Assembly (NCBI RefSeq): GCF_902652985.1
Contig: NC_047015.1
Span: 22,630,001 to 22,694,000, forward strand
DNA: 64,000 bases
Reading direction: 5' to 3'
From: Pecten maximus
Lineage: Eukaryota
Shown: positions 1-63,800 of the stretch, piece after piece
Position numbering within the stretch: the stretch's first letter is position 1
Layout of the letters: each line of letters opens with the position of its first letter
Made by a program: the position numbers

Positions 1-3000
1 GGATTACTATGACTGACGGCTGTGCATTACTAGGTATAAAGGAACACTTTCACAGCTATAGCAAGACAATCACGTGGATTTACACACCAGCTTATCACCA
101 AACGTTGATTAACTGACAACTCCATAGCTAAATCACGATATCGCTAGTGTTTTATTTAAATATACGATTGATAGGCTACAACGCACATTACAAACGGCAT
201 AATTGTATTTTATAGCAAAGACACATAGGGCACTGAATGCATCAGCTAAGGTATGTTTGAATACGAGAGAGGCCAAAACAAAAGGGAAAAAACATCATGA
301 TACAAATATCAATTTTATATTTTATTGAAAGTTTTGAATAAAAATTATAAAAAAAAACACAGCAAGAAACTGACAGCAAATTAACATGGCCTGCAACAAA
401 CCCACAACATGGAGTTGGTGACATGGCTCTGGTTTCCCCGAAAACACCGCATAAACAACGTGTGGTAATCAGGGTCTCCGAAACCGGTCAGCCCCAAACT
501 CCGAGAGATGACTCAGCGACAATCTCCTCACACAGGATGTGCTACATGTTATCTAAATAGTCCATGCGACTTCCCATAAAAATACAATATTTTTCGTGAA
601 TCATTTTATCTGCTTTCGTGTCGACTCAACAATGATATGATACAGCGTTTACCTGAACAGCTTCAGTAAGCTGCTGACTTTGCCACACCTGTACTGGGAC
701 AGTCGTGCGCTCGTGCAATATTGTTTCAGTAGCCCTAGATATACCAATGGTCAGTAGCCCTAGGTATACCAATGGTCAATAGTCCTAGGTATACCAATGG
801 TCAGTAGCCCTAGGTATACCTATGGTCAGTAGCCCTAGATATACCAATGGTCAGTAGCCCTAGGTATACCAATGGTCAGTAGTCCTAGGTATACCAATGG
901 TCAGTAGCCCTAGGTATACCAATGGTCAGTAGTCCTAGATATACCAATGGTCAGTAGCCCTAGGTATACCTATGGTCAATAGTCCTAGGTATACCAATGG
1001 TCAGTAGCCCTAGGTATACCTATGGTCAGTAGCCCTAGATATGCCAATGGTCAGTAGCCCTAGGTATACCAATGGTCATTAGCCCTAGGTATACCTATGG
1101 TCAGTATACCTAACCACACCAATGTTCAGTAAACCTAGCCACACCAATATTAAGTAGACTAAGCTAGCCATGCCAATGTTCAGTAGACCTAACCATACCA
1201 ATGTTCAGTAGACCTAACCACAACAATGTTCTGTAGACCTAACCACACCAATGTTCTGTAGACCTAACCACACCAATGTTCTGTATACCTAACCATACCA
1301 ATGTTCTGTAGACCTAACCATACCAATGTTCAGTAGACCTAACCATACCAATGTTCTGTAGACCTAACCATACCAATGTGCTGTAGACCTAACCATACCA
1401 ATGTTCTGTAGATCTAACCACAACAATGTGCTGTAGAACTAACCATACCAATGTTCTGTAGACCTAACCACCCCAATATTCTGTAGACCTAACCATACCA
1501 ATGTTCAGTAGACCTAACCATACCAATGTTCTGTAGACCTAACCACCCCAATGTTCTGTAGACCTAACCATACCAATGTTCTGTAGACCTAACCATACCA
1601 ATGTTCTGTAGACCTAACCATACCAATGTTCAGTAGACCTAACCACAACAATGTTCTGTAGATCTAACCACACCAATGTTCAGTAGACCTAACCACAACA
1701 ATGTTCTGTAGATCTAACCACAACAATGTGCTGTAGACCTAACCATACCAATGTTCTGTAGACCTAACCACAACAATGTTCTGTAGACCTAACCACACCA
1801 ATGTTCTGTAGACCTAACCACACCAATGTTCTGTAGACCTAACCACACCAATGTTCAATAGACCTAACCATACCAATGTTCTGTAGACCTAACCACACCA
1901 ATGTTCTGTAGACCTAACCACAACAATGTTCTGTAGACCTAACCATACCAATGTTCTGTAGACCTAACCACAACAATGTTCTGTAGATCTAACCACACCA
2001 ATGTTCTGTAGACCTAACCACACCAATGTTCTGTAGACCTAACCATACCAATGTTCTGTAGACCTAACCACACCAATGTTCTGTAGAACTAACCATACCA
2101 ATGTTCAGTAGAACTAACCACACCAATGTTCTGTAGACCTAACCATACCAATGTTCTGTAGACCTAACCATACCAATGTTCTGTAGACCTAACCACACCA
2201 ATGTTCTGTAGACCTAACCATACCAATGTTCTGTAGACCTAACCACACCAATGTTCTGTAGACCTAACCACAACAATGTTCTGTAGACCTAACCACACCA
2301 ATGTTCTGTAGACCTAACCACACCAATGTTCTGTAGACCTAACCACACCAATGTTCTGTAGACCTAACCACAACAATGTTCTGTAGACCTAACCAGAACC
2401 AATGTTCTGTAGACCTAACCACAACAATGTTCTGTAGACCTAACCACACCAATGTTCTGTAGACCTAACCATACCAATGTTCTGTAGACCTAACCATGCA
2501 GATGCCTATACTATAGGCCATGTGTAATGAATAACGTGTACGCTACAGGACGTAGACAGAAGGAGAACGCGTTAATGTAATATATACCTATTTGGGATAA
2601 AATGTCCCTAGAATGTCCCCAAATCATAAATTCGCTATTAACATACAGAAATCAATGTTTGACATACATGAAAAATGTCGCATTTCTTTGATACATCTTT
2701 AGGATTAGGGTAAGTAAACATTGTGTGGCCATGTTGAAGGTTTATGGAGGAAATCGGAGAAATAAAACATGGCATTTTCAGTGTGTTTATGAGTAACAAG
2801 AGGTCTGTGACTTAACAAGACAATCTCAGTAACATTTTTCATGTTGTCATTAAATCGTATCCTTGCCATCAAAGTCGGCCATACGTTTAACAACACTTGT
2901 CTGGTAGTAATAACGCCACCTCGCAAAAAGCTGCTTATCGACAATGACATTAACTATCGTTCATCAGGATCACTCTGGCGTTTGTCATAATGACACAACA

Positions 3001-60800: not shown

Positions 60801-63800
60801 AAATGGATAGAAAAATGCATACTGTATTTTACATTCATCGACCGTAAGTTATATTCGGAGTGATCTCCCTTGTGGAAATGGAGTAAATTAAAGGTACATC
60901 GAACGTACAACATACAACAATGCATGTACTGTATAATTTGGACCCGATTTGACAAATGACTTAAATATAGGGGATATAACGTATAAATCTGATACATGTT
61001 AAAAGTTAGCATTAATGTAATTGTATGTGAGATCATGTGTAATAATGAGACCAATTGTTCCGTGTTCGAGGAAATCCTGAAGGTGTTATCATTTGTTGTG
61101 TTGCCAAGAATCCAAACGTTTAACATAACACTATGTAAGAGTTGTCTGCTCCTAGCCAGATAAAGGGTATCAGCTGTACTGATCTACTAAATTGGAGTTG
61201 AATTGTCTGATAGTTATCCATTAGAACATTTACCTGATATTTGATGCCCGAGTTTTTGTGTGGCAATATCAAAATACGTGCCCAGATTTTAAAGGGATAA
61301 CTTATATTAATCACGGTTGGTGGCCCGAATGGAAGCAAGCGAGGGGTCTTACTGTGGGAGGAAACCGGAATAACGGGGGAACCCACGTGGTCGGCAAGGT
61401 GAACCAATACCTTTGTCGCATTGATCGGGGAATCGAACCAAGGCCTCCTAGGTTAAAGGCCAGTGTACATGAGTGGCATATACCACTGGATTACCCGATC
61501 AACCATGTAACCTTGATGTGTGACGTAGTACGGTAACAAATGTAGCCCCACCATCGACCGGACCCTGATGTGTGACGTAGTACGGTAACATATGTAGCCC
61601 CACGTGCACTATCGGCCGGACCCTGATGTATGACGTAGTACGCTAACATATGTAGCCCCACCACCGGCCGGACCTTGATGTGTGACGTAGTACGCTAACA
61701 TACATTGTATGTAGCCCCACCATCGACCAGACCCTGATGTGTGACGTAGTACGCTAACAAATGTAGCCCCACCATCAACGGACCCTGATGTGTGACGTAC
61801 AGTGTAGTACGGTAACAAATGTAGTCCCACCATCGACCAGACCCTGATGTGTGACGTAGTACGGTAACATATGTAGCCCCACGTGCACTATCGGCCGGAC
61901 CCTGATGTATGACGTAGTACGCTAACATATGTAGCCCCACCACCGGCCGGACCTTGATGTGTGACGTAGTACGCTAACATACATTGTATGTAGCCCCACC
62001 ATCGACCAGACCCTGATGTGTGACGTAGTACGCTAACAAATGTAGCCCCACCATCAACGGACCCTGATGTGTGACGTACAGTGTAGTACGGTAACAAATG
62101 TAGTCCCACCATCGACCAGACCCTGATGTGTGACGTAGTACGCTAACATATGTAGTCCCACCATCACCGGACCCTGATGTGTGACGTACAGTGTAGTGCG
62201 GTAACATATGAAGTCCCACGTGCACTATCGACTGGACCCTGATGTGTGACATTGCACCGCAACATGTTTCCCACCAAATTGACCGGGCCCTGAGGTATGA
62301 CGTAGTATTATATCACACATAGTCTAACCATCGGCCGGACCCTGATGTGTGACGTAGTATGGTATTATTTAACCCCACTATCGGCCGGACCCTGATGTGT
62401 GACGTAGTATGGTATTATTTAACCCCACTATCGGCCGTACCCTGATGTGTGACGTTGTATCAGAGACCTATATACAGAGATTGGCAACACTCTCTTTGCC
62501 TTTGTGTTTACGTAGTGGTCCCTGACCTTCCCACAATCCTTTGCGGTCGCTCGGTTCAGTCTTCACTAGACGCCATATTGGAGAAAACTTGAAAACCAGA
62601 CACATAATTATCGATAATTTCTATTTGAAATCATCACCAAGATCCAATACTGTGCTTTAATTTCATTAATATCAAAGTTCAGAAGTGTCATCAATATGAA
62701 ATATATCACAATTTGCTGTCCAAGTGTTTGTATTTTGAGTATGAAAGTCAAGCACAACGCAGGAAAGATCGGCGGGAATCTCCAATTTTCGAAAAGTCCC
62801 TATGGGGTTTTCGAGAATACGGATAAATGACAACAATGTGCATGATAATCAAGACCACATTCCATAAGTATGATAGTTTTTGGTCAATGTGGTTACTTTT
62901 GTAGTGGCCAAAATAAAACGATGTGCTTTTTGTGTACGTTTGAAATTGACGATGTTTTGGTCTGACGTAATGGCGGCTATTTACAAACTTGGACATGTCG
63001 AATAGGACCCAGTGGATTTTAGAAAATACGGATAAATGGCAACAATGTGCATGATCAATAAGACTATATCCCATAAGTTTGATAGTTTTTGGTTAATGTG
63101 GTTACTTTTGTAGTGGCCAAAATAAAACGATGTGCTTTCTGTGTGTATTTAAAATGACGATGTTTTGGTCTGACGTAATGGCGGATTAACCAGAACATGT
63201 CGAATAAGTTCCAATACTACGATACACACATGCGCAAAGCCCGATTTACCTGCGCTGGCGTGTGTTTGATAGGAGACAAGACGCTCTCGATAAGGGATAT
63301 GCTTGAGTGGTCACGAATAAAGGGAGCCACTACGTGTACGGGGAAATAGCGATGTTACTAATCTCTCTGTATATATGTCTCTGGTTGTATGGTATTATTT
63401 AACCCCACTATCGGCCGGACCCTGATGTGTGACGTTGTATGGTATTAGTTAACCTCACTATCGGCCGGACCCTGATGTGTGACGTTGTATGGTATTATTT
63501 AACCCCACTATCGGCTGGACCCTGATGTGTGACGTTGTATGGTATTATTTAACCCCACGATCGGCCGGACCCTGATGTGTGACGTTGTATGGTATTATTT
63601 AACCCCACCATCGACCGGTCCACTGTATGTGACACAGTACGGTCAAATGAAGTCCTACCATATATAGACTGAACCCGATTAAAATACGTTAATACACAAA
63701 ACTATCCTCGCTCATCAGAGACTTATACACCTTTAAATGAGGCCAATATTCTTGGTTGATTCGACAAATTTTGCAATTCTGAAGGTATACATAAAATGTA

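What the first reader, a model, noticed from the sequence alone, without database searches (positions are those of the whole stretch)
727..63625. Minisatellite nursery: about 25 unrelated arrays covering roughly half the window, at every stage of growth
Seen: units of 20, 22, 24, 25, 27, 29, 30, 31, 33, 35, 36, 39/40, 42, 43, 44, 47, 53 and 54 bp with no evident shared core, typically spaced a few kb apart or less. The series runs from dimers (3644, ~4451) to a trimer (12943), short arrays (43901, 32255), arrays of 60-95 copies (20030, 27685, 50202) and higher-order repeats (19081, ~61560, 34700). The seeds include a gene, a SINE end and anonymous intron DNA. Inference: a regional, sequence-independent process repeatedly duplicates and amplifies 20-55 bp of local DNA. 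Candidates are microhomology-mediated repair, rolling-circle or iterative template switching, or a subtelomeric high-recombination domain. This would inflate the PDE11 intron without transposons. It is my best candidate for an under-described system here.
Basis: partly seen in the sequence, partly recalled or inferred. Interest (0 to 1): 0.72.

Follow-up and report, generated by a model that had tools for sequence, protein, structure and literature searches.

The report
Minisatellite-packed scallop PDE11 intron
This stretch of king scallop DNA really is half made of some 26 unrelated short tandem-repeat arrays, most of which look copied on the spot from ordinary local DNA, but scallop genomes are already known to be full of such arrays, so it is a dense example of a known habit and not a new system.

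Summary
TRF finds 30 array loci covering 34,643 of 64,000 bp (54%). Dinucleotide shuffles give 0-76 bp. The units are unrelated and share no core.

The window is Pecten maximus, not human. Exon 1 of a PDE11-like gene (44311-45036, minus) is 242/242 identical to the P. maximus protein. Arrays fill 63.6% of the intron-1 part and 34% of the upstream part.

In both cases where the single-copy state can be seen, the array is an in-place copy of local DNA. One is the end of a dispersed element. The other is a tetraspanin pseudogene exon.

Array lengths cluster near whole unit numbers plus a few bases. Flanks carry no terminal repeats. Units show neighbour similarity and block duplications. One 156-bp array has a Helentron-type left flank.

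Published scallop genomes already report tandem repeats as the top repeat class (11.3-21.7%), about 96% of them minisatellites. A special regional process is therefore not shown and is not needed to explain the arrays. Genome-wide uniqueness of the units, read support and orthologous introns could not be tested.

The parts
44311..45036 (-). Exon 1 (aa 1-242) of a PDE11-like (dual cAMP/cGMP phosphodiesterase 11-like) gene. No array overlaps it.
   Evidence: Pfam GAF hit. 97% identical to the M. yessoensis protein. 242/242 identical to P. maximus XP_033741192.1. tblastn with the full-length protein finds no further exon in the window.
1..44310 (-). Part of PDE11-like intron 1 that lies in the window. 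It holds 22 array loci covering 28,164 bp (63.6%).
45037..64000 (.). Upstream/intergenic part. It holds 8 array loci covering 6,479 bp (34.2%), a tetraspanin pseudogene, a decayed LINE and a TIR element.
741..2497 (+). 25-bp x70 array. Units are more alike when close together; the left-end units are the most diverged.
   Evidence: rho -0.43, p 0.002; first two units 0.74 against last two 0.98 identity to consensus
3645..3731 (+). Dimer: 42 nt twice, spacing 45, 41/42 identical.
4187..4536 (+). Copy A of a ~300-bp dispersed element. Its last 41 bp are tandemly duplicated (4450-4536) with a 5-bp junction overlap, ATGTT.
47111..47403 (-). Copy B of the same dispersed element (81% identical). It carries the 41-bp segment once, which is the single-copy state.
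4721..5459 (+). 53-bp x14 array
6441..7883 (+). 54-bp x22 array with a 135-bp compound start. Open in all three + frames.
9774..12555 (-). 156-bp x18 array; candidate central repeats of a Helentron-type non-autonomous element.
12564..12679 (-). Left-flank-like module of that element: hairpin 12650-12679 (13-bp stem) followed by a (GTCCGTC/GTCCGGC)n microsatellite at 12564-12634.
   Evidence: DNA fold z -5.75; architecture as described in PMC7492417
12938..13065 (+). Trimer: 43 bp x3.0, 97%.
13618..14189 (+). 20-bp x27 array with 67/87-bp compound periods
14502..15081 (+). Old purine-rich array, units about 21/41 bp, 65-83% matches
16050..17401 (+). 47-bp x28 array with higher-order periods (291/338 bp)
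18288..18889 (+). 35-bp x17 array
18968..19627 (+). 24-bp x26 array with a 10-unit (240-bp) higher-order repeat
   Evidence: 0.977 at lag 10 against 0.94 at lag 1
20041..23580 (+). 39-bp x90 array
25781..26142 (+). 53/40-bp mixed array (146-bp period). The 40-bp unit is the 53-bp unit minus 13 bp.
26932..27236 (+). 25-bp x12 array
27681..29784 (+). 22-bp x about 90 array with strong G-over-C skew
30961..31402 (+). 27-bp x16 array (137-bp higher order)
31420..31941 (+). 36-bp x14 array, 17 bp from the previous one and unrelated to it
32254..32451 (+). 31-bp x6.4 array
33867..34631 (+). 30-bp x26 array
34688..43687 (+). 9-kb compound array of related 19-, 29- and 30-bp units, arranged as a 3.2-kb block repeated about 2.8 times.
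   Evidence: (34688-39269 against 37885-42486: 93.7% over 4,683 columns, offset 3197)
43905..44057 (+). 33-bp x4.6 array, 250 bp from the exon
48420..49257 (+). 25/50-bp array with a 13-unit (325-bp) higher-order repeat
50202..52784 (+). 42-bp x62 array
52980..53199 (+). 29-bp x7 array
53963..54816 (+). 44-bp x4.5 array running into a 36-bp x19 array. The 36-bp unit is the 44-bp unit minus 8 bp.
56223..56423 (+). Tetraspanin pseudogene, first coding piece (aligns to aa 2-70 of homologues; no ATG at the aligned start).
56424..59017 (-). Decayed non-LTR retrotransposon (endonuclease and reverse transcriptase pieces in several frames). It lies where tetraspanin aa 71-106 should be.
59465..59788 (+). 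Tetraspanin exon piece (aa 107-214 of homologues). The array starts inside it at 59768.
59768..60496 (+). 20-bp x36 array amplified from coding DNA. The same 7-residue motif of the homologues sits at both ends (59768-59788 and 60476-60496). 12 in-frame stops.
60476..60687 (+). Tetraspanin last coding piece (aa 208-274), with a 1-nt frame shift at an A9 run near 60542-60550.
61510..62460 (+). 55/110/279-bp higher-order array, ending in 2.6 copies of the 50-bp unit type.
62461..63383 (.). 923-bp TIR element inserted into the 50-bp array (20-nt TIRs; 7-bp target duplication GTTGTAT). It holds its own ~209-bp tandem duplication at 62789-63206.
63384..63631 (+). 50-bp x5 array: the other half of the array that the TIR element split.

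Best explanation
The window is king scallop (Pecten maximus) DNA. It holds exon 1 of a PDE11-like gene, at least 44 kb of its first intron and 19 kb of upstream DNA.

About 26 independent minisatellites were born here, each from a different piece of ordinary local sequence. The first step (inferred) is a short tandem duplication whose ends share 0-8 bp. This fits replication slippage, template switching or end joining between short direct repeats, i.e. the Haber-Louis and Taylor-Breden type of minisatellite birth.

Arrays then grow and turn over by in-register events that add or remove one or many units: slippage, unequal sister-chromatid or homologue exchange, or repair synthesis. This gives neighbour-similar units, higher-order blocks up to 3.2 kb and new unit variants made by small deletions.

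The same thing happens across scallop genomes, where tandem repeats are the largest repeat class. The window is therefore a dense sample of a lineage-wide habit sitting in weakly constrained DNA (a long first intron, intergenic DNA, a dead gene). It is not a special regional machine.

One array (156-bp units) is instead likely carried by a Helentron-type element.
For: Shown:
- Arrays cover 54% of the window, against 0-76 bp in 20 shuffles.
- Units are unrelated apart from one pair, and no core is shared.
- Array GC is 0.414 against 0.403 for non-array DNA. Per-array GC of 0.30-0.58 lies in the range of random local 35-mers.
- With the arrays masked, the window has only 3 internal repeat pairs, and none links the flanks of two arrays.
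- Within 200-bp flanks, 1 of 28 arrays has an inverted repeat and 0 of 28 a direct repeat at p<0.05.
- Single-copy states are visible in 2 of 2 testable cases. The 41-bp dimer is a duplication of the end of a dispersed element whose other copy has the segment once, with a 5-bp overlap. The 20-bp x36 array lies inside a tetraspanin exon, and the homologues' contiguous 7-residue motif sits at both array ends.
- Phase-based remainders of 20 arrays cluster at an integer copy number plus about 0.1 unit (V-test Monte Carlo p=0.010; Rayleigh p=0.017). Ten of the 20 have overhangs of 1-8 nt.
- Growth signatures: 10 of 24 arrays show unit identity falling with distance (permutation p<0.05). Higher-order lags of 10-13 units appear in 4 arrays. 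There is a 3.2-kb block at 93.7%. Unit variants arise by 8- and 13-bp deletions.
- A TIR element with a target duplication sits inside one array, so that array predates the insertion and is not carried by it.
- Species: 242/242 identity to P. maximus.

From passages read in papers:
- Yesso scallop: minisatellites are about 96% of tandem repeats; 34-44-bp arrays of 240-270 copies; 6 of 12 clones map to single loci (PMC4856933).
- Tandem repeats are the top repeat class: 11.3% in C. farreri (PMC5700196) and 21.7% in A. pleuronectes, and they are not reduced among scallops (PMC10225492).
- The two birth models are taken as summarised in PMC3389668.
Against: - The window's 54% is about 2.5-5 times the published scallop means, so some local enrichment is not excluded. 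I could not scan the P. maximus genome.
- Only 2 arrays have a visible single-copy state. For the other arrays, local origin is inferred.
- Genome-wide uniqueness of the units was not testable. Each unit could still belong to its own dispersed family.
- 4 of 20 arrays end in mid-unit. 12 of 42 flanks carry decayed unit homology, so some boundaries are fuzzy. Remainders depend on TRF boundaries.
- 14 of 24 arrays show no significant distance effect.
- The P. maximus genome paper did not run TRF. It lists simple repeats at only 0.99%, with 16.7% unclassified.
- That assembly was made with wtdbg2 from PacBio CLR reads, so array lengths may be wrong.
Confidence: 0.68

Rival explanations
1. A regional effect: the locus lies in a domain of unusually frequent recombination or breakage, as in the mouse pseudoautosomal region or vertebrate subtelomeres. 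This raises local birth and unequal exchange of minisatellites above the scallop background.
For: Density of 54% against published scallop means of 11.3-21.7%. Window GC about 41% against 36.6% for the P. maximus assembly. In the mouse PAR, introns are filled with minisatellites, and the authors attribute this to frequent recombination and unequal crossover (PMC13050634, passages). Higher-order blocks fit unequal exchange.
Against: There is no telomere-repeat run: a single 12-mer with 1 mismatch, and 25 of 100 shuffles do as well. Arrays are no more GC-rich than their flanks. The mouse PAR is dominated by one unit family, whereas here nearly all units differ. Position on the chromosome and recombination rate are unknown to me. 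The window was picked by a scan for oddities, so a high tail value is expected.
Confidence: 0.15
2. Most arrays are the internal repeats of mobile elements (Helentron non-autonomous elements, pearl-like elements or repeat-bearing MITEs, as in oysters and clams). They arrived by transposition, and each unit is a dispersed family.
For: The 156-bp x18 array has a hairpin plus a GTCC-type microsatellite directly 5' of the monomers on the minus strand. Its monomer size is in the 140-180-bp range described for Cg_HINE. In C. gigas, 49% of satellite-like arrays belong to such elements (PMC7492417). The P. maximus paper lists 16.7% unclassified interspersed repeats.
Against: The hairpin motif occurs once in the window. 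The other arrays have 19-55-bp units, not 140-180 bp. No array flanks resemble each other. Terminal inverted repeats were found in 1 of 28 and direct repeats in 0 of 28. Two arrays are demonstrably in-place copies. Copy numbers cluster near integers. In Yesso scallop, 6 of 12 minisatellite clones hybridised to single loci. No right-flank palindrome was found even for the 156-bp array.
Confidence: 0.1
3. Pre-formed arrays made off the chromosome (rolling-circle copying of a circularised unit) were inserted here.
For: 4 of 20 arrays end in mid-unit. 30 of the 42 tested flanks show no decayed unit homology.
Against: Insertion should give random phases, yet remainders cluster near an integer (p=0.010). 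In both testable cases, leaving one unit in place restores the ancestral local sequence. No target duplications flank the arrays.
Confidence: 0.04
4. Assembly artefact: arrays were stretched or invented by a long-read assembler working on noisy reads.
For: The published P. maximus assembly used wtdbg2 on PacBio CLR reads with polishing. A 56-nt poly-C (54827-54882) and a 1-nt frame shift at an A9 run look like places where errors are common.
Against: Units carry structured variants, higher-order patterns and distance decay, which collapse or stutter would not produce. A transposon with a target duplication sits inside one array. In Yesso scallop, PCR products of 9-11 kb matched the TRF-predicted array lengths (PMC4856933).
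Confidence: 0.03

Closest known systems
Scallop (Pectinidae) genome-wide minisatellites, as reported for Patinopecten/Mizuhopecten yessoensis, Chlamys farreri and Amusium pleuronectes
   Same: Same animal family and the same kind of array: 20-55-bp units, tens to hundreds of copies, locus-specific units. Tandem repeats are the largest repeat class, and about 96% of them are minisatellites.
   Different: Those papers give totals and FISH markers only. They do not describe the births, the seeds, the internal structure or the packing of about 26 unrelated arrays into 64 kb. The P. maximus paper did not run TRF.
Minisatellite birth between short direct repeats (Haber and Louis 1998; Taylor and Breden 2000), read here only as summarised in PMC3389668
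   Same: A 5-bp overlap at the dimer junction. Ten of 20 arrays have 1-8-nt overhangs and 6 of 20 have a slightly incomplete last unit. These are the two signatures the models predict.
   Different: The models describe single loci. Here the same outcome is seen about 26 times in one window. 4 of 20 arrays fit neither signature.
Mouse pseudoautosomal region
   Same: Gene introns are almost filled with minisatellites, and array length differences drive size change (PMC13050634).
   Different: The PAR is dominated by the mo-2 family and relatives, and the authors tie this to frequent recombination and unequal crossover. Here nearly every array has its own unit, GC is like the flanks, and no recombination data are at hand.
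Helentron non-autonomous elements with central repeats (Cg_HINE, pearl, DTC84) of bivalves
   Same: The 156-bp array has the left-flank hairpin, a GTCC-type microsatellite and monomers of fitting size.
   Different: The other roughly 25 arrays have much shorter units and lack these flanks. No right-flank palindrome was found for the 156-bp array.
Classical human hypervariable minisatellites (Jeffreys type; features recalled, not from a call)
   Same: Unit sizes of 10-60 bp, internal variant units, and signs of polarity in some arrays, e.g. 741-2497.
   Different: There is no shared GC-rich core. GC is about 41%. No telomere repeat lies nearby.

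Membership tests
Minisatellite (tandem array of about 10-100-bp units) | Head-to-tail copies of a 10-100-bp unit | tested here: met
   TRF periods are 19-55 bp for all but the 156-bp array, the 7-bp microsatellite and the poly-C.
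Minisatellite (tandem array of about 10-100-bp units) | Copy-number variation between alleles (VNTR behaviour) | not testable with these tools
   Only one haplotype sequence is held. No reads or second assembly were available.
Scallop genome-wide minisatellite load | Sequence comes from a pectinid genome | tested here: met
   The exon is 242/242 identical to the P. maximus PDE11-like protein and 96-97% identical to three other scallops.
Scallop genome-wide minisatellite load | Units are locus-specific, not dispersed | not testable with these tools
   No eukaryote genome collection was on hand. Within the window, units recur only in their own arrays. Translated arrays found no close relatives in the protein sets, which says little.
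Classical GC-rich core-sharing hypervariable minisatellites | Shared core motif among loci | tested here: not met
   No 6- to 8-mer is shared beyond shuffles, and there is only one related unit pair.
Classical GC-rich core-sharing hypervariable minisatellites | GC-rich units | tested here: not met
   Array GC is 0.414 against 0.403 for non-array DNA.
Helentron non-autonomous element (HINE/pearl type) carrying tandem repeats | Left flank with a short hairpin (subTIR plus IR) and a microsatellite before the repeats (PMC7492417) | tested here: met
   Met for the 156-bp array only: hairpin at 12650-12679 (z -5.75) and a GTCC-type microsatellite at 12564-12634. The hairpin motif occurs once in the window, so this is not met for the other arrays.
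Helentron non-autonomous element (HINE/pearl type) carrying tandem repeats | Monomers of about 140-180 bp | tested here: not met
   Only 1 of about 26 arrays qualifies (156 bp). The others have 19-55-bp units.
Helentron non-autonomous element (HINE/pearl type) carrying tandem repeats | Right flank with a subTIR and a palindrome after the last repeat | tested here: not met
   No convincing palindrome lies within 9350-9790.
Helentron non-autonomous element (HINE/pearl type) carrying tandem repeats | Element-specific flanks shared among many genomic copies | not testable with these tools
   This needs the whole genome. Within the window no array flanks match each other.
Tandem-repeat-bearing MITE (TIR element) | Terminal inverted repeats and a target duplication around the array | tested here: not met
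   1 of 28 arrays has an inverted repeat in its 200-bp flanks at p<0.05, and 0 of 28 a direct repeat. The one clear TIR element lies inside an array, not around it.
Subtelomeric minisatellite domain | Telomere repeats or a chromosome end nearby | tested here: inconclusive
   There is no (TTAGGG)n run in the window. The distance to the chromosome end is unknown.

The most novel reading that the evidence does not exclude
Scallops as a lineage make new minisatellites from arbitrary DNA at an unusually high rate, because of some peculiarity of replication or break repair. Short tandem duplication plus array growth, and not transposition, would then be the main force that lengthens their introns and intergenic DNA, and it can destroy genes outright, as in the tetraspanin exon here. 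This window would be a natural time series of that process, from dimers to 9-kb compound arrays.
Probability: 0.25. Interest if true: 0.6.

Novelty: new member of a known kind. Interest (0 to 1): 0.3.

Why it matters
The abundance of minisatellites in scallops is in print, but only as totals and as FISH markers.

In the library searched, 'mini-satellite' with 'scallop' gave one paper. None of the 20 listed of 27 papers holding 'minisatellite', 'scallop' and 'genome' appears from its title and abstract to deal with how the arrays arise. A search for minisatellites, bivalve, Tandem Repeats Finder and introns listed none either (12 of 108 seen).

This window gives concrete, checkable cases of birth in place. 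They include a coding exon turned into a 36-copy array and a transposon landing inside an array.

If the high birth rate is a lineage trait, scallops would be a good system for asking what sets the rate of minisatellite birth, which is still poorly understood.

Practically, such arrays give long open frames (up to 745 aa). Arrays this dense may also matter for repeat masking, intron-size comparisons and assembly checks in bivalves (inference).

Tried and rejected
- Rfam at gathering scores on the whole window gave 0 hits. ARAGORN gave 0. Rfam at E<=1 on the dispersed element (4100-4650) gave 0. The 'SINE' label is therefore unconfirmed.
- The 54-bp array, translated, was searched against the word-indexed protein set. 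None of 8,000 candidates scored E<=0.001.
- The 42-bp array, translated, was searched against the 1.84-billion representative set. It gave 357 hits at E<=0.001. Among the best 150 listed, all but one are 12-45% identical, many in long proteins, and the exception is 52% over a 116-aa protein. I read these as repeat-on-repeat matches, not the same unit family. Both searches say little, because intronic arrays are rarely annotated as proteins.
- Plain lag autocorrelation was confounded by indels. I replaced it with wrap-around alignment to the consensus.
- Raw length modulo period was likewise unreliable. I replaced it with phase-based remainders.
- TRF at score >=30 on the 29 kb of non-array DNA found 6 tiny duplications (periods 10-14), against 1-4 in 20 shuffles. 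This is no clear excess of very young seeds.
- Close spacing of arrays: 5 of 29 gaps are 78 bp or less. A rough exponential expectation of my own, not a call, gives about 2.3. Two of the five involve the microsatellite and the poly-C, so I make no claim that arrays seed neighbours.
- The ACGGACGG motifs left of the 42-bp array (50118, 50173) looked like a Helentron microsatellite. There are only 3 in the window, 11 of 100 shuffles do as well, and they sit on the wrong side for that architecture. I rejected this.
- A first hairpin pattern was mis-spaced and found nothing. The corrected pattern found the site.
- The idea that the array in the tetraspanin exon could be spliced out as a new intron was considered. 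I did not pursue it, because the gene has other lesions.
- The idea that open frames in arrays inflated the first P. maximus gene count was considered. The reannotation paper blames fragmented gene models, not repeats (passages), so I dropped it.

Full report
**What is there.** Tandem Repeats Finder reports 102 rows. These merge into 30 loci covering 34,643 of 64,000 bp, or 54.1%. The window holds no N. In 20 dinucleotide-preserving shuffles, TRF covered nothing in 17 and at most 76 bp.

These include the 3645 dimer, which TRF misses and the repeat finder shows (42 nt twice, spacing 45, 41/42 identical). Units are unrelated in an all-against-all comparison, except for 61510 and 63384.

No 6- to 8-mer is shared by more units than in shuffled units. 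ACCAATG occurs in 4 of 27 units (P=0.09). One 5-mer occurs in 11 of 27 (P=0.006), but only against mononucleotide shuffles, so I give it no weight. I set aside the poly-C and a 7-bp microsatellite and merged the one split array. That leaves about 26-27 independent arrays.

**Whose DNA, and what genes.** The only intact coding piece is on the minus strand at 44311-45036. It has a GAF domain and matches aa 1-242 of PDE11-like proteins. It is 97% identical to Mizuhopecten yessoensis and 242/242 identical to Pecten maximus XP_033741192.1. It is 96-97% identical to Ylistrum balloti and Argopecten irradians.

The window is therefore king scallop and not human. tblastn with the full-length scallop protein finds no other exon. 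So 1-44310 is part of intron 1 and 45037-64000 is upstream. Arrays cover 63.6% of the intron part (22 loci), none of the exon, and 34.2% of the upstream part (8 loci).

Each exon was searched on its own.

**A second gene, and a birth caught in a coding exon.** A tetraspanin reading frame at 59462-59824 (Pfam PF00335) has scallop relatives. The closest is A. irradians tetraspanin-18B-like at 74% identity. It lies on a contig of the same length as the one holding that species' PDE11-like gene, which suggests conserved linkage.

tblastn places the homologues as follows:
- aa 2-70 at 56223-56423
- aa 107-214 at 59465-59788
- aa 208-230 at 60476-60544
- aa 230-274 at 60544-60678

Residues 208-214 are one contiguous stretch in the homologues. 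In the window they are found twice, at the first and the last unit of the 20-bp x36 array (59768-60496). The array is therefore an in-place amplification of 20 bp of coding sequence.

The gene is dead in this genome. The frame has 12 stops across the array. There is a 1-nt shift at an A9 run and no ATG at the aligned start. Residues 71-106 are not found, and a decayed non-LTR retrotransposon lies where they should be. Whether the array killed the gene or grew in a dead one cannot be told.

**A second birth with a visible ancestor.** With the arrays masked, the window has only three internal repeat pairs. One is a ~300-bp dispersed element at 4187-4449 and, inverted, at 47146-47403 (81% identical). 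Aligned, the second copy carries once the 41 bp that the first copy carries twice (4450-4536). The duplicate junction overlaps by 5 bp, ATGTT. The element is not shown to be a SINE.

**Are the arrays carried by mobile elements?** For most of them I see no sign of it.
- No flanks of different arrays resemble each other.
- Within 200-bp flanks, inverted repeats beat shuffles at p<0.05 in 1 of 28 arrays. Direct repeats do so in 0 of 28.
- Array GC (0.414) equals non-array GC (0.403). The per-array range of 0.30-0.58 matches random local 35-mers.

There is one exception. On the minus strand, the 156-bp x18 array (9774-12555) is preceded by a 13-bp-stem hairpin (12650-12679; DNA fold z -5.75, 0 of 200 shuffles as stable) and a (GTCCGTC/GTCCGGC)n microsatellite (12564-12634). 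This is the left-flank layout described for oyster Helentron non-autonomous elements, whose monomers are 140-180 bp and whose microsatellites are GTCC-like (PMC7492417, passages). I found no right-flank palindrome, so membership is only partly met. The hairpin motif occurs once in the window.

Conversely, a 923-bp element lies inside the 50-bp array and splits it. It has 20-nt terminal inverted repeats (95% complementary) and a 7-bp target duplication, GTTGTAT. Here the transposon is the guest, not the carrier.

**How the arrays begin.** I aligned each array to its cyclic consensus. I took the phase of the first and last base for the 18 segmented arrays that abut non-array DNA at both ends. 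The dimer and the trimer come from exact extension.

The remainders of these 20 arrays are not uniform. They cluster at an integer number of units plus about 0.1 unit (V-test by Monte Carlo p=0.010; Rayleigh p=0.017).
- Ten have overhangs of 1-8 nt.
- Six lack up to 15% of the last unit.
- Four end in mid-unit.

[quoted passage not shown] I know these models only as summarised in PMC3389668 (passages). Random-phase insertion of ready-made arrays is disfavoured.

Caveats: the boundaries come from TRF, and 12 of 42 flanks carry decayed unit homology. The class limits were set after seeing the data, although the circular test does not use them.

**How the arrays grow.**
- In 10 of 24 arrays, unit identity falls with distance in units (permutation p<0.05). 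In 14 it does not.
- Higher-order lags stand out in four arrays: 10 units at 18979 (0.977 against 0.94 at lag 1), 13 units at 48527 (0.896 against 0.768), 11 at 16050 and 12 at 50202.
- The 9-kb compound array is a 3.2-kb block repeated about 2.8 times (34688-39269 against 37885-42486: 93.7% over 4,683 columns).
- Units are remodelled and the new form is then amplified: 44 to 36 bp by an 8-bp deletion, 53 to 40 bp by a 13-bp deletion, and related 19-, 29- and 30-bp units.
- TRF match levels run from 62% to 100%, so ages differ widely.

These are ordinary marks of in-register slippage or unequal exchange. They do not tell replication from recombination.

**What is known.** From passages read in papers:
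- In Yesso scallop, minisatellites make up about 96% of tandem repeats. Arrays of 34-44-bp units with 240-270 copies exist, and PCR products matched their predicted 9-11 kb. Six of 12 clones mapped to single chromosomal loci (PMC4856933).
- Tandem repeats are the most abundant repeat class in C. farreri, at 11.3% (PMC5700196).
- They are also the top class in A. pleuronectes, at 21.7%, the species that paper places closest to P. maximus. Tandem repeats, unlike transposons, are not reduced among scallops (PMC10225492).
- The P. maximus genome paper used RepeatMasker only. It lists simple repeats at 0.99% and unclassified repeats at 16.7% (PMC7191990). The assembly is wtdbg2 on PacBio CLR reads, with a GC of 36.6%.

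**Verdict.** It is a dense instance of a lineage-wide and already reported property of scallop genomes.

The claim of a special regional process is not shown. The window is about 2.5-5 times the published scallop means and somewhat GC-richer than the assembly. There is no telomere repeat, and I could not scan the chromosome. A region-specific boost in the manner of the mouse pseudoautosomal region (PMC13050634) remains a minor rival.

Not checked, for want of a eukaryote genome collection or reads: genome-wide uniqueness of the units, read support, and orthologous introns.

Noticed in passing
window 62461-63383: A 923-bp element with 20-nt terminal inverted repeats (95% complementary) and a 7-bp target duplication (GTTGTAT) is inserted into the 50-bp minisatellite. 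It splits the array into 62330-62460 and 63384-63631. The element holds its own ~209-bp tandem duplication (62789-63206).
   Followed up: yes
window 56223-60687 (+): A tetraspanin gene that is intact in Argopecten irradians is a pseudogene here. It lacks an ATG at the aligned start and residues 71-106. A LINE lies in between, a 20-bp x36 array inside the exon gives 12 in-frame stops, and there is a 1-nt shift at an A9 run.
   Followed up: yes
window 9774-12679 (-): Hairpin, then a GTCC-type microsatellite, then 18 monomers of 156 bp: the left-flank layout of oyster Helentron non-autonomous elements. No right-flank palindrome was found.
   Followed up: partly
window 54827-54882: A run of 56 C directly after the 36-bp array. 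It is either a real homopolymer or an assembly or polishing artefact.
   Followed up: no
window 58459-58519 and 58635-58695: A perfect 61-bp inverted repeat inside the decayed non-LTR retrotransposon.
   Followed up: no
window 6247-7950, 27641-29878, 50236-52029 and others: Arrays give very long open frames (567, 745 and 597 aa), some open in all three frames of one strand. They have no protein-family support.
   Followed up: partly
whole window: CpG observed/expected is lower in arrays (0.68) than in non-array DNA (0.92), although GC is equal (0.414 against 0.403).
   Followed up: no
window 741-2497: Marked polarity: the first two units are 74% identical to the consensus and the last two 98%. 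The array may have grown mostly at its right end.
   Followed up: partly
window 12922-12938: A short (TA)n run directly abuts the start of the 43-bp trimer.
   Followed up: no
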